In this document: positions 12,017 to 57,017 of the stretch, piece after piece
Numbering within the stretch: the stretch's first letter is position 1
How the letters are laid out: each line of letters starts with the position of its first letter
Source: Octopus sinensis
Lineage: Eukaryota
Direction of reading: 5' to 3'
Assembly: GCF_006345805.1 (NCBI RefSeq)
Contig: NC_043011.1
Location: 41,056,464 to 41,120,463, forward strand
Length of the DNA: 64,000 nucleotides
Translations under genes and position numbers: made by a program
The notes under the pieces: model-generated
What the model was told of the DNA's origin: nothing
The model's database searches: none
The model's input: only the letters and a program-made list of their open reading frames with translations

Positions 12017-12122
12017 ATCACTACAATTGTTTCTACGCAACGTAGTTCTCCAGGCGTGTAGATACTTCACTATGTAACCATTTCCCTGCATTATGAGATC
12101 TAGTTGTGTTTCCTCAGGTGAT
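12017..12122 (-). ncRNA. Type-I hammerhead ribozyme with long stem II (left arm of an inverted pair)
   Basis: Minus strand: atcac-CTGAGGA-A-[ACACAAC..TAG..TCTC...GAGA..CTA..GTTGCGT]-A-GAAACAATTGTA-gtgat. Confidence 0.75.
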
Positions 12123-12223
12123 ATGTAAATATTGTTTCCGTAAGTTCAAATTCTTGGCTTCAAGAGCATCCTCTCTGTCTGTCGTAGCCTGAAAGACAGA
12201 ACTTACGGAAACAATATTTAGAT

Positions 12224-12329
12224 ATCGCCTGAGGAAACCCAACTAGATCTCATAACGCAGAGAAACAATTGCATAAATAAGTACCTGCACGCATGGAGAA
12301 CTATGTTGCGTAGAAACAATTGTAGTGAT
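12224..12329 (+). ncRNA. Type-I hammerhead ribozyme with long stem II (right arm of an inverted pair)
   Basis: atcgc-CTGAGGA-A-[~75 nt stem II]-A-GAAACAATTGTA-gtgat; palindromic ACAATTGT stem III. Confidence 0.75.
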
Positions 12330-12468
12330 CAAAAATTGTATGTCCAACCGTACACCTTGTTGATCCAGATTTTTTCAATTACATATAAGTGTGCGTGTGT
12401 GCAGTGTGCGTGTATATGCATATATATATGTATATAAACATATATATATATATTCTTTTATTGTTTTA

Positions 12469-12854
12469 CTAGCAGTATCGCCCGGCGTTGCTCAGGTTTG
12501 TAAGGGAAATAACTATAAAGCATTTTTAGAGAGTATAGGCCAAAAAATAGCAAAAGATGAAAAAAAATGATGGGTAAAATTTTTTTTTTAAGTTAAAAAA
12601 GGTGGAGTTGCGTCCCCTAGACAGTGGTGCGGTTTGTGTTTCTCATTCTCGACCCCATGTCAAATTTATCGATTTTTTCAGAACTGGGGGGAACTTTTCA
12701 AAATTTTCGCTGTGTTAGTTTTAAATTATGACATTGGGCTATGTGTGTGTCAAGTTTCATCAGAATCGGTTGAAAGCCGTGGTCAGGGTGAGGGTACAAG
12801 AAAACAGACACACAGAAACACGCACAGACAAACTGCCGTTTATATAGAGAGAGA
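12469..12854 (-). mobile_element. Non-autonomous Helitron inserted in a SINE tail
   Basis: Minus strand 5'-TC...subterminal hairpin...CTAG-3' inserted between A and T; 3' end shared with 53117-53631. Confidence 0.75.
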
Positions 12855-13182
12855 TTTGTTTTAGTCATTTGACTGCGGCCATGCTGAAGCACCGCCTTTA
12901 GTCGAGCAAATCGACCCCAGGACTTATTCCTTCTAATCCTAGTACTTATTTAATCGGTCTCTTTTGCCGAACCGCTAAGTGACGGGGACGTAAACACACC
13001 AACATTGGTTGTCAAGCGATGGTGGGGTACAAATACAGACACACACAAATACATTTCCGTCTACCAAATCCACCCACAAAGCTTTGGTCGGTCCGAGGTT
13101 AGAGTAGAAGACTCTTGCCCAAGGTGCCACGCAGTGGGACTGAACCCAGAGCCATGTGGTTGGTGAGACCACTCCTACGCCT
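12855..13182 (-). mobile_element. SINE family A (tail split by the Helitron; remainder at ~12453-12468)
   Basis: Reverse complement of family A head and tail. Confidence 0.85.
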
Positions 13183-13619
13183 ATACATATATACATATGT
13201 ATATATATATACATGTGTGTGTGTCTACATGCATATATATATATATATATATATATGTATATATATATATATGTATATGTGTGTGTCTATGAGTGTGTGT
13301 GTGTGTTGTGTGGTGTGTGTGTGTGTGTGTGTGGTGTGTGTGTGGTGTGTGTGTGTGTGTGTGTCAGTGTGTGTGTGCTTACGCGCATGAATTTAGGCAG
13401 TTCAATACTTGCTGATCGAAACGAGATGCTTAATCTTTGAGAGAACTCAACAGTCCAAGTGGTAGCGGGTGCTATGAGTTTCTGCGTATGTGAATGGAAC
13501 AAGCAGGAAGAAAGTGGTTATGTTTGTGATACATTCTTCCCATGAGTTTAATTCACAAATACATGAAATAATAGCACCGTTTTCCTGTTGAGCCGTTGAG
13601 TACTCTCAGAGATGGTAGA

Positions 13620-13790
13620 CGTCAGATCAGGTGATGTAGGTATGGGGTGTAGGGTCTGCGCTGTTGCAGCGCATCGCTGCATCTACCATTCGTCGGTATC
13701 TGCTCGGGTCGTCTCGGACCATCCACCGGGCAGTCTCCTTGTTCTCATCTCCGCGACCATGTAGACATGGTAGAGAGAGGCATAAAAAAT
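13620..13790 (-). mobile_element. RTE-clade LINE 3' end (degenerate)
   Basis: Minus translation RWMVRDDPSRYRRMVDAAMRC resembles RTE ORF C-termini, followed by a CCTGATCTGAC-type tail. Confidence 0.5.
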
Positions 13791-53631: not shown

Positions 53632-53658
53632 TTTTATATAAAAACATATATAAAATTA

Positions 53659-53881
53659 TACGAGCAGGTGCTGAAAAGTAGCTGGCTTTGGATAAAATTA
53701 GATACAGGGGGATCAGTTAATTATGATTTTTTTTCCACATGTTCCCCTCTCAGATTCACACACTTACTGCAGCGGTCCTTCAGTTTTTCTAAGCCCAGTA
53801 AATGAACTCAGAAGTTTGGACCTCCAGCCAGGCCTTTCGCAATACCCTTAAGGTCAGGAATTATTTAGCACCTCTCTCGTA
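53659..53881. mobile_element. Mariner-type MITE
   Basis: TA-CGAG..GGTGCTGAAAA ... TTTAGCACC..CTCG-TA imperfect TIRs. Confidence 0.6.
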
Positions 53882-54016
53882 CATCCTATGTTAGCCCAAA
53901 GGTTAGGCGAAAAAGTTTGAGATTACGTATGTGCGAATATGTACATAGATAGATAGATAGATAGATAGATAGATAGATAGATAGATAGATAGATAGATAG
54001 ATAGATAGATAGATAG

Positions 54017-54303
54017 ATAAGTTTCTTTATTGGCCACACAGGGCTGCACACAGATGGGACAAGTTACAAGGTAGAGCTTTTCTTTTGGGGGATGGAAAAA
54101 AACAAAAAACAAAAGAAACAAAAAAGGAGTGGCGTAGGTTTTCGATCAAGAGGGATCGTAAAAGGGAAGAAAAGAACAAAAAAAAATAAAATAAAAAATA
54201 AAAAAATAAAAATTTAAAAAAAGAAGAAAAGGAAAAGGAACAAAAGAAAAGAGAAATGAAAAAAAGAAGAAAAAAGGGGAAAAAGGGGAAGAGGAAAAAA
54301 AAA
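54017..54303 (-). mobile_element. Second (GATA)n-embedded retrotransposon 3' UTR
   Basis: Near-identical ends to 40556-40806. Confidence 0.65.
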
Positions 54304-54851
54304 GATAGATAGATAGATAGATAGATAGATTAGATAGATAGATAGATAGATAGATAGATAGATAGATAGATAGATAGATAGACATGCATATATAAGGACT
54401 AAAGAAATACAGTTGTGTGTGGTTGTGTATGGTGATGTATCATTGTGATATGTGTATGTGTGTGCGTATGTGTGCGTGTGTGTGCATAATTTAATATACA
54501 CAGAATTTAAAAAAGAGCTACCAATAGTTTTTGTGCTGTAGAAATAGAACGATTTGGAAGTTTTATATAACATGCCATGTGTCTCCAAGCAATCCTTCAG
54601 GCTCAGTGAATACTTAACTCTTAGTAGACGGAGTTCTTTTTTCTTGGTCCTACTTATAAAGGAAGAGTATACGACAGGCAGGCAGACAGGCAGACAGATG
54701 TGCGTGTATATATATATTTCTTTATTGCCCACAAGGGGCTAAACATAGAGGGGACAAACAAGGACAGACAAACGAATAAAGTCGATTACATCGACCCCAG
54801 TACGTAACTGGTACTTAATTTATCGACCCCAAAAGGATGAAAGGCAAAGTG

Positions 54852-55140
54852 GACTAAGAAACTCAGAAAAATACAGGTGTTGCAGAAATATGATGGATTA
54901 TCCTTCTGGTCCTAAAAAAAAGGACCATGGGCACTAATGGATTAAAACACAACCGGCCAGATATTGTTGTATGGAACCCCAAGAAAAAGGTATGTTCTGT
55001 TGTGGAAATTAACTGCCCTCTGGATACCAATATGCTTAGAAAAATACAAAAGAAAGGGGACATCTATGGGCCATTGACCGTGAATTTGCAAATGTAGTCC
55101 CCGAGATACACTTTCAGCTTCATACCCATTATCATTGGAG
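54852..55140 (+). mobile_element. RLE LINE fragment, inverted copy of ~51040-51285, between two SINE B copies
   Basis: GACTAAGAAACTCAGAAAAATAC...GGCCATTGACCGTGA matches the reverse complement; SINE B pieces at 54717-54852 and 55172-55397 (-). Confidence 0.8.
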
Positions 55141-56933
55141 TAATATAATACATACCTATCTGGATTGTGATACCTATTTCTTTACTACCCACAAGGGGCT
55201 AAATACAGAAAGCACAAACAAGGACAGACAAACGGATTAAGTCGATTATATCGACCCCAGTGCGTAACTGGTACTTAATTTATCGACCCCAAAAGGATGA
55301 AAGGCAAAGTGGACCCCGGCGGAATTTGAACTCAGAACGTAACGGCAGACGAAATACGGCTACCGGCGTGCTAACGGTTCTGCTAGCTCACCGCCTTCGT
55401 GCTTGTTATTTTGTATGTCCGTATAAAGTTTTCTTGTCACTACCTTCTCGCCTCTTCTCGGTATCTTTCGTATTTTAACGTTCATTTATTGTCCCTTCCC
55501 TCAAGGTCATTTCCCTTCTCCACTGAAAACTTATAACCTCTCCTTCCTCCGCTCTCTCACTTTCACTATCTATTTATCATTCAGCGCCAGACGGCACTTC
55601 TTATCTCTTTGACGAAAGTGTTCTGTCCGATACGTTATACTTCTCTTCTCCCTCCACAGCATTAACTTTATCCTGCTATTTAAATTTTTCCATTGCTGCT
55701 TTTTTTCCCCTTTTTTTGTCGATAATAATGTACCAGTTTCCCACTTCATATACCGGATGAATATGACTTATTAACGTCACATATAACACTTGCTTCTCAT
55801 TTGCTTTTCATTGTATTTAGTGATATGACTTGCCTTGCATTATTCATAGACATACTCTTATCTTTATACTGGTGTAAATATTTATATAGCTATTTACTTT
55901 TCTCTGCACTACTGTCAATTATGAATCTCAATCCTTCTAACACGATTTCTTTTTTTTTTGTTCATTTCGATAATTTAATAAGATACTTGATTGGAAAAGT
56001 AAACACAAAAAGTGAACATGTAAAATATAGTTCTGTGTAAAATCTGAAATAAATCTCGCGAATACCAAGATTCATAAATATTTAATTAAAAAACTTTATT
56101 TCTTAGATTTTTTAGAGGTTTGTCAGATAAATTCTTTCGTTATTTTTCATTTATCTCTATTTCTTCTAATCCTTGCCGGTGTTATTTGAATTAACAGGAA
56201 AAATATTTTATAGTAGTTTTGTGAGGTTATTTGTACCATAATGCTTCCTCTACAAGTTATGCTTGTCGTTTTTGAAATTTGAATGGATTTTTTTTCCTCA
56301 GATATATGATGATCGCGTGCCAAGTTGAAAAAAAATGATCGCATATTTGACAAATCTACACACACACACACACACATATATATATATAATACATACATAC
56401 ATACATATATATATATATATATATATATACATATATATATATATATATATATATATATATATATATATATATATATATATATATATATCTATATATATAT
56501 ATAATAAATCCATGTATATATACATGCAGCACCCTGGGTTTCAGGGTCCCACAGCTTTTTTAATTTTTCTTTTTGTTCTTTTTTCTATTCACGGAGCCAA
56601 AACTCACGTCTTCTCACTGTAACAGTCCAGACCAACTAGTGTTGCAATCTGGGTAACCGGAAGTAAGCAAGCTACTTACCACACAGCCACTATATATATA
56701 TATATATATATATATATATATATATATATATATATATATATATATATTATATATATATATAGTAATATAATTTCAATAATATATATTTAGATATATTATA
56801 AGATTTGATATGTTTCTAATTTAATCGTTAAAATTTCCTTTGGTAGAGCATTTTCAATATATATCTTAATTGTGCTTCAGATATTTAAAATTTTAAAAAT
56901 ATATTTGTAAGTTTTATTTTTAATATAATTTTT

Positions 56934-57017
56934 ATAGCCTGAGGACGCACTGGTGGATTTATGTATTAAGTATAGCCTAAATACACACCCCACCAGCGCA
57001 GAAACACGAGTAGCGAT
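56934..57017 (+). ncRNA. Type-I hammerhead with long stem II
   Basis: atagc-CTGAGGA-C-GCACTGGTGG...CCACCAGCGC-A-GAAAC(acga)GTA-gcgat. Confidence 0.7.

What the first reader, a model, noticed from the sequence alone, without database searches (positions are those of the whole stretch)
12017..57017. Recurrent hammerhead variant: unpaired 10.1/11.1 plus an extended stem II
Seen: five motifs in three families (12017/12224, 24534, 38748/56934) read CUGAnGA-(A or C)-[stem II]-A-GAAA. This puts A.A or C.A where the canonical core has an R10.1-Y11.1 pair, with stem II regions of ~25-75 nt. Recurrence across unrelated families suggests a tolerated or selected core variant rather than decay. Whether it is already described cannot be checked here.
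Basis: partly seen in the sequence, partly recalled or inferred. Interest (0 to 1): 0.72.

Follow-up and report, generated by a model that had tools for sequence, protein, structure and literature searches.

The report
Penelope hammerheads with unpaired first pair
These are copies of a hammerhead-shaped RNA motif from Penelope-like jumping genes in which the base pair next to the catalytic core is replaced by an inherited mismatch, in at least eight repeat families of this genome, some of them very young; the motif likely still cuts slowly with help from the element's protein, but cutting is untested and similar mismatches are already in print.

Summary
The five motifs are real type I hammerheads with a short palindromic stem III. 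Four read as stated; the 38748 copy has GACA and is decayed. The 10.1/11.1 mismatch is inherited, not decay: A·G or A·A in F1, A·A in F2, C·A in F3, also in copies picked by flanks alone. Five more families carry it (A·A, A·G, A·C three times), three of them very young. F3 and F5 are tails of Hydra-clade Penelope-like elements and sit in two separate RT clades beside paired relatives, so it arose at least twice, by substitution. The long stem II is a separate lineage trait: 18 of 20 ORF-picked elements have it with a normal pair. Best reading: a tolerated loosening in a slow, likely protein-assisted ribozyme, with A usually kept at 10.1. Partly in print: U·U in many Hydra-clade hammerheads and in an active axolotl one, C·A in one table row. 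The A·A/A·G/A·C set I did not find described. This scan noted the long arm and a position-4 mismatch before on other DNA. Cleavage is untested. New variant of a known kind.

The parts
11835..12382 (.). F1 element, two truncated copies in inverted arrangement (non-coding repeat of about 750 nt; no ORF link found)
12017..12122 (-). F1 type I hammerhead; core at 12117, A10.1 (12110) opposite A11.1 (12034), 77-nt stem II region, palindromic stem III, GUA cut site
12224..12329 (+). F1 type I hammerhead; core at 12229, A10.1 (12236) opposite A11.1 (12312), 77-nt stem II region
24263..24839 (+). F2 element, 1.2 head-to-tail units of a 487-nt non-coding repeat (retrozyme-like), ends in (TA)n
24535..24591 (+). 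F2 type I hammerhead; core at 24540, A10.1 (24547) opposite A11.1 (24573), 27-nt stem II region, AUC cut site
38328..38821 (+). F3 tail fragment of a Hydra-clade Penelope-like element (diverged subfamily)
38748..38821 (+). F3 hammerhead, decayed: C10.1 (38760) opposite A11.1 (38804), GACA in place of GAAA, 45-nt stem II region
56756..57211 (+). F3 tail fragment of a Hydra-clade Penelope-like element
56934..57017 (+). F3 type I hammerhead; core at 56939, C10.1 (56946) opposite A11.1 (57000), 55-nt stem II region; one private change in the stem III palindrome

Best explanation
These are tail hammerheads of Hydra-clade Penelope-like elements and of short repeats likely derived from them, in which the 10.1-11.1 pair is replaced by an inherited mismatch that is likely tolerated because the ribozyme is predicted to work slowly, as a dimer and with help from the element's protein. 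Shown: the fold elements, the family-level mismatch, the link of F3 and F5 to Hydra-type ORFs, two separate origins, and independence from arm length. Inferred: pairs 10.2 and 10.3 and the long arm hold stem II stacked on the sheared A9·G12 pair; A at 10.1 (7 of 8 families) keeps a purine N7 for the metal pocket, so rates would fall but not vanish, most in F3 (C10.1); the palindromic stem III pairs two copies; cutting trims or circularises some transcripts but is not needed for each insertion, so selection on speed is weak. The window copies themselves are lone, aged inserts and are probably not working now.
For: Family states: F1 A·G 22, A·A 14, A·C 2, U·G 1 of 39; F2 A·A 31 of 33; F3 C·A 22, U·A 8, other 2 of 32, with U at the rate of other CpG sites. 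Flank-picked copies agree: F1 18 of 20 A·A or A·G; F3 13 of 20 C·A, 5 U·A, 2 C·G. In 55 F1 copies G (30) versus A (22) at 11.1 is linked to other sites (p = 1.4e-6, best of 50 columns), so both forms spread. More families: F4 A·A 28 of 28, F5 A·C 29 of 29 rows, F6 A·C 62 of 62 rows (F5 and F6 rows include overlapping loci), F7 A·G 15 of 15, F8 A·C 20 of 20. F5: 40 of 40 scored matches are 100% identical and it follows a Hydra-type ORF. Same-register relatives of F5 have G-C and G·U. RT tree: F3 groups with A-U families, F5 within G-C/G·U/A-U families, each 100/99. In 9 mismatch rows pairs 10.2 and 10.3 are kept 9 of 9 with different letters, and stem III palindromes differ between families. 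20 of 20 ORF-picked loci keep an intact core. Literature: G10.1 N7 is a metal ligand, affinity G > A > U > C (PMC6961537); loss of N7 costs about 30-fold (PMC6795133); a PLE hammerhead is protein-assisted and not needed for insertion in vitro (PMC11167929); a U·U variant cleaves, better as a dimer (PMC7229834).
Against: No cleavage data. Copy ends do not pile up at the cut site in any of six families; they run tens to about 290 nt past it. 0 of 20 ORF-picked loci have the mismatch, so the pair is still the majority state. The pairing counts are partly circular, since the rows were found by a pairing descriptor. In F5 and F6 a slipped register could restore G-C beside a bulged A. G·A is never a family state although A-to-G is a transition, which pure tolerance does not explain. 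F1 and F2 are tied to Penelope-like elements only by architecture, (TA)n ends and inverted or tandem layout.
Confidence: 0.6

Rival explanations
1. The mismatch is a selected third non-canonical pair: 10.1 and 11.1 would form a sheared (trans Hoogsteen/sugar-edge) pair stacked on A9·G12, giving an alternative core geometry.
For: The family states A·G, A·A, C·A, A·C swap within lineages without passing to a normal pair: A·G and A·A in F1; C at 10.1 in F2 relatives in 8, 1, 4 and 1 contigs of four public runs; A at 11.1 in F5 relatives in 2 and 9 contigs. A·G, A·A and C·A are named as isosteric in this pair family in PMC8450098 (passages); A·C is recalled, the matrix paper was not held. G·A, which by recall does not fit, is not a family state (single copies only).
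Against: By recall 7 of 10 mismatch types fit this family, so four fitting types is weak (about 0.17 by chance, hand count). U·U, common in Hydra-clade rows and seen in single hits here, does not fit by recall. Close relatives do well with normal pairs. A·C and C·A are one transition from G-C and U-A.
Confidence: 0.2
2. The motif no longer needs to cut in these families; it would be kept as a folded handle for the element's protein, and the mismatch marks loss of catalysis.
For: Copies run past the cut site. Catalytic mutants of a PLE hammerhead did not affect insertion in vitro and no reads ended at the site (PMC11167929).
Against: All eight mismatch families keep the catalytic letters and a U-H cut triplet, and keep stem III palindromic with different letters. 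F5 and its A·C relative L341 are 73% alike yet keep core and stems with a compensatory change; that pair was found by the descriptor, so the test is not independent.
Confidence: 0.12
3. A-to-I editing gates the ribozyme: the long arm would recruit ADAR, and editing of the A in A·C or C·A would restore an I-C pair and switch cutting on.
For: A·C or C·A occurs in F3, F5, F6, F8 and F2 relatives. In run X1 (RNA only by guess) A>G is 13 of 26 changed places on F2 against 3 of 18 in X16 (p = 0.03), and A11.1>G is seen in 4 contigs of X1 only. ADAR preference for A·C is recalled.
Against: Cannot help A·A or A·G families. The same run shows A>G in core positions too. No A>G at F5 10.1 among the 40 rows shown (21 not shown). 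No matching DNA run, so these may be genomic variants. Long arms are equally common in paired families.
Confidence: 0.05
4. The mismatches are post-insertion decay of normal hammerheads.
For: The window copies are old (F1 about 86%, F3 about 87% alike to kin) and one has a broken core.
Against: The mismatch is the majority state in flank-picked copies and is fixed in families with identical copies.
Confidence: 0.02

Closest known systems
Hammerheads of Hydra-clade Penelope-like elements (Craig et al. 2021, PMC8557442; seen: passages, section 11, supplement parts 1-2 of 59 with Files S1 and S2)
   Same: Type I, palindromic short stem III, tail of RT-then-endonuclease ORFs, (TA)n ends. In File S2, 15 of 26 Hydra rows have an unpaired 10.1/11.1 (14 U·U, 1 U·C; my count), and PLE-X1_cBra has C·A followed by a G-C stem, as in F3. 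The paper calls them canonical; I saw no remark on the mismatch.
   Different: Here the mismatches are A·A, A·G, A·C and C·A, and stem II regions reach 43-106 nt; loops in the Hydra rows are 10 nt or less.
Minimal PLE hammerheads (Cervera and de la Pena 2014, PMC4209133; seen: main text parts 1-2 of 4, supplement file 2 parts 1-2 of 3; file 1 not searchable)
   Same: PLE association, palindromic stem III, dimer model, low activity, an unpaired base after A9. One of the 56 core cells in Fig. S3 reads AGAAA (row not assignable from the text).
   Different: That paper stresses a conserved G10.1-C11.1 pair with a single bulged base on the 5' side; here both sides are unpaired and relatives show substitution in register.
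Axolotl HHR_Amex2 in non-LTR retrozymes (Cervera and de la Pena 2020, PMC7229834; seen: passages, section 15); retrozymes as PLE derivatives (bioRxiv 10.64898/2026.07.22.740005; seen: abstract, passages)
   Same: Natural type I hammerhead with a mismatch at the base of helix II that cleaves (22% in one hour as monomer, more as dimer); short tandem units like F2, F6, F8.
   Different: U·U, short helix II with loop contacts; units of 330-350 nt against 487 (F2), 546 (F6) and about 400 nt (F8) here.
Natural core variants (Perreault et al. 2011, PMC3088659; seen: passages)
   Same: Reports a natural U10.1·U11.1 start of stem II.
   Different: States that U·U is the best-tolerated mispair; purine mismatches are not reported in the passages seen.
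PLE-linked short-stem-III hammerheads (Lunse et al. 2017; not held; title seen in PMC6765202, content recalled)
   Same: PLE association and cleavage as dimers.
   Different: Could not check; its alignments may already hold this variant.

Membership tests
Type I hammerhead ribozyme | Core CUGAnGA, GAAA, U16.1-H17 in order, open stem I | tested here: met
   4 of 5 window copies; family majority intact in F1, F2, F3
Type I hammerhead ribozyme | Stems I, II, III pair, with covariation across lineages | tested here: met
   II2 30, II3 32, I1 32, III1 32 of 32 rows; partly circular
Type I hammerhead ribozyme | R10.1-Y11.1 pair (consensus feature, known exceptions) | tested here: not met
   hence filed as a variant
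Type I hammerhead ribozyme | Self-cleavage after H17 | not testable with these tools
   no footprint in copy ends
PLE dimer-type hammerhead | Short palindromic stem III | tested here: met
   self-duplex -7.8 kcal/mol for F1 and F2
Hydra-clade Penelope-like element | RT then GIY-YIG endonuclease with RWK-like, DKT, CxCX5C, CxxC and CxH motifs, no CCHH | tested here: met
   read by eye in intact ORFs against section 11; F3 and F5 linked by tblastn and tree; no Pfam hit for 3 of 3 ORFs; no published Hydra protein was placed in the tree
Hydra-clade Penelope-like element | Hammerhead in the tail, sense to the ORF; (TA)n ends; tandem or inverted copies | tested here: met
   F3: L038, L154, L166, L180; F5: L358-L362
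Hydra-clade Penelope-like element | ORF link for F1 and F2 | tested here: inconclusive
   no contiguous ORF within 1.5 kb flanks
Non-LTR retrozyme | Short non-coding head-to-tail unit with one type I hammerhead | tested here: met
   F2 487 nt, F6 546 nt; F1 not seen in tandem
Non-LTR retrozyme | Circular monomer RNA in tissue | not testable with these tools
   only contigs were available

The most novel reading that the evidence does not exclude
In A·C and C·A families the long stem II arm recruits ADAR and editing restores an I-C pair at 10.1/11.1, making these natural editing-switched ribozymes that tie retroelement processing to host RNA editing.
Probability: 0.05. Interest if true: 0.85.

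Novelty: new variant of a known kind. Interest (0 to 1): 0.42.

Why it matters
The 10.1-11.1 pair caps the catalytic platform and supplies a metal ligand, and search descriptors usually demand it along with a short stem II. About a third of strict hits in this genome lack it (6 verified of 17 in 1.0 Mb; order 10^4 copies by extrapolation), including very young families. They give natural, replicated test cases for how far the core bends and for the open question of whether PLE hammerheads must cut at all. F5 (young, with ORF) against its G-C relatives is a ready comparison. It does not define a new ribozyme class.

Tried and rejected
Rfam scan: no hammerhead among the 150 rows shown. Generic repeat finders were swamped by microsatellites. 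Pfam gave nothing for three intact ORFs. Linking F2 to the ORF piece in L073, and F1 to endonuclease pieces in L133 and L151: rejected as separate neighbours. Copy ends at the cut site: none (overlapping loci not merged; F1 3' ends limited by the reference). Expression: no RNA holder listed; only contigs could be laid. Coupling of mismatch and arm length: rejected. Two inserted bases instead of a replaced pair: disfavoured by same-register relatives. The L253 hit was auto-classed as a mismatch but pairs A-U, and L189 (G·G) had no second copy; both were left out of the mismatch count. Window sites 6486 and 29061 did not fold as hammerheads. L096 dropped from the tree (17 of 18 rows); test_one_clade not run. 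Papers not held: Lunse 2017, Nelson and Uhlenbeck 2008, PMC47062, PMC134247. Searches that found no description of the A·A/A·G/A·C set or of long arms in PLE hammerheads. Supplements not seen (file 1 of PMC4209133, bioRxiv files, Lunse 2017) may bear on novelty.
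Full report
Setting. The window lies in a 2.7-Gb, microsatellite-rich animal genome (G000). Other notes of this scan call it octopus-like; I did not test that.

Observation. The five motifs are present. The first is on the minus strand and forms an inverted pair with the second. Each has stem I, CUGAnGA, a stem II region of 77, 77, 27, 45 or 55 nt, and a short palindromic stem III before GUA or AUC. Four have GAAA; the 38753 copy has GACA. Positions 10.1/11.1 are A·A (three) and C·A (two). A strict descriptor found 4 window hits against 0.01 in shuffles and 17 per 1.0 Mb against 0-1; 3 of the five named motifs passed it. Folding z-scores are mostly unremarkable. Rfam showed no hammerhead among 150 listed rows.

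Family test. Genome searches gave 967, 1178 and 222 first-look candidates for F1, F2 and F3, of which 40 each were scored and 30 fetched. States: F1 A·G 22, A·A 14, A·C 2, U·G 1 of 39; F2 A·A 31, C·A 1, A·U 1 of 33; F3 C·A 22, U·A 8, C·G 1, G·A 1 of 32. The U·A copies match CpG decay, since other CpG cytosines in that alignment read T in 9 of 32. Copies picked by flanks alone agree (some F3 loci overlap the first set). In 55 F1 copies the G and A forms are linked to other diagnostic sites (p = 1.4e-6), so both were spread by source elements. Decay is rejected.

What the elements are. F3 lies about 800 nt behind an endonuclease-coding stretch on the same strand. Intact relatives encode 750-1100 aa proteins with the motifs that Craig et al. 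give for the Hydra clade. F2 is a 487-nt non-coding head-to-tail unit; F1 a non-coding repeat of about 750 nt, often inverted, ending in (TA)n. No ORF link was found for F1 or F2, so their Penelope-like origin is inferred from architecture and from the report that animal retrozymes derive from PLE tails (bioRxiv abstract).

How common. The genome sample led to five more families: F4 A·A 28 of 28, F5 A·C 29 of 29 rows, F6 A·C 62 of 62 rows, F7 A·G 15 of 15, F8 A·C 20 of 20. These sets were picked by likeness to a query that includes the motif. F5 has 40 of 40 scored matches identical and a Hydra-type ORF; F6 21 of 40 identical; F8 13 of 40 at 97-99%. Relatives of F5 carry G-C and G·U in the same register, and an A·C at pair 4 lines up F1 and F3 with paired families L253 and L131, so the pair was replaced, not pushed out by insertions. 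An RT tree of 17 rows puts F3 with A-U families and F5 among G-C, G·U and A-U families, each 100/99: at least two origins. In contigs of other organisms F2 relatives have C·A and F5 relatives A·A. In F5 and F6 only, a slipped register could give a bulged A plus G-C.

The long arm is a separate trait. All 20 loci picked by ORF have an intact core, none has the mismatch, and 18 have a stem II region of 40 nt or more. Long arms occur in 6 of 8 mismatch and 17 of 23 paired lineages (p = 1.0; lineages are not independent). Most fold as irregular hairpins.

Mechanism. A9·G12 is a sheared pair capped by G10.1-C11.1 (PMC11300833); G10.1 N7 binds a metal (PMC7151607), with affinity G > A > U > C and about a 30-fold cost when N7 is removed. 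Seven of eight families keep A at 10.1, which fits partial retention of that pocket (inference). PLE hammerheads are slow and work as dimers, one is protein-assisted and dispensable for insertion in vitro, and a U·U variant cleaves. Copies here extend past the cut site by fixed lengths and none pile up at it, which fits internal initiation on uncut or circular RNA and gives no proof of cutting. I therefore favour a tolerated loosening (0.6) over a selected sheared pair (0.2), a non-cutting handle (0.12) and editing-gated cutting (0.05).

Against what is known. Craig's File S2 already lists unpaired 10.1/11.1 in 15 of 26 Hydra rows (U·U, U·C) and C·A in PLE-X1_cBra; Perreault notes natural U·U; one of 56 core cells in Cervera's Fig. 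S3 reads AGAAA. I found no description of the A·A, A·G, A·C set or of long arms in Hydra-clade hammerheads, but Lunse 2017 was not available. Earlier notes of this scan describe the long arm and a position-4 mismatch on other DNA; none matched this junction mismatch.

Verdict. Real, inherited, repeatedly evolved variant of a known ribozyme in a known element. Interest 0.42.

Noticed in passing
window 63021-63104 (-) and 63310-63999 (-): A sixth hammerhead with a 55-nt stem II region and a normal G-C pair, behind the end of a Hydra-type ORF 94% identical to the intact L114 protein; an in-window control for the long arm.
   Followed up: yes
window 3541-3577 (+): Ordinary minimal PLE-type hammerhead with one bulged A and G-C; a common family (8 hits).
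   Followed up: partly
window 24689-24720 (-): The F2 unit carries on its opposite strand a hammerhead-like string with a core one base too long and no clear stem II; shared by many F2 copies. If it cut, the circle would have ribozymes in both polarities.
   Followed up: no
window 12239/12309 and 56949/56997; L253, L131, L098: An A·C or C·U mismatch at stem II pair 4 in F1, F3 and some paired families, but not in most others (8 of 32 rows unpaired there).
   Followed up: partly
window 24500-24640, run X1: A>G makes up 13 of 26 changed places in a run guessed to be RNA, a possible editing pattern on the sense strand; no matching DNA.
   Followed up: partly
L380-L399, L114, L094: Young families with CCGAnGA (U4C) cores; one F8 subfamily pairs this with GUC, the other has CUGA with GUA.
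   Followed up: no
L308-L364: F5, F6 and other families show two fixed 3' end points after the hammerhead (+46/+58, +183/+289), the PLE tail signature, with longer gaps in the short tandem families.
   Followed up: partly
L103-L122: Many intact Hydra-type ORFs of 750-1100 aa with long Asn-rich insertions and tails of 0.6-2 kb, larger than the published Hydra elements; no Pfam hit in three tested.
   Followed up: partly
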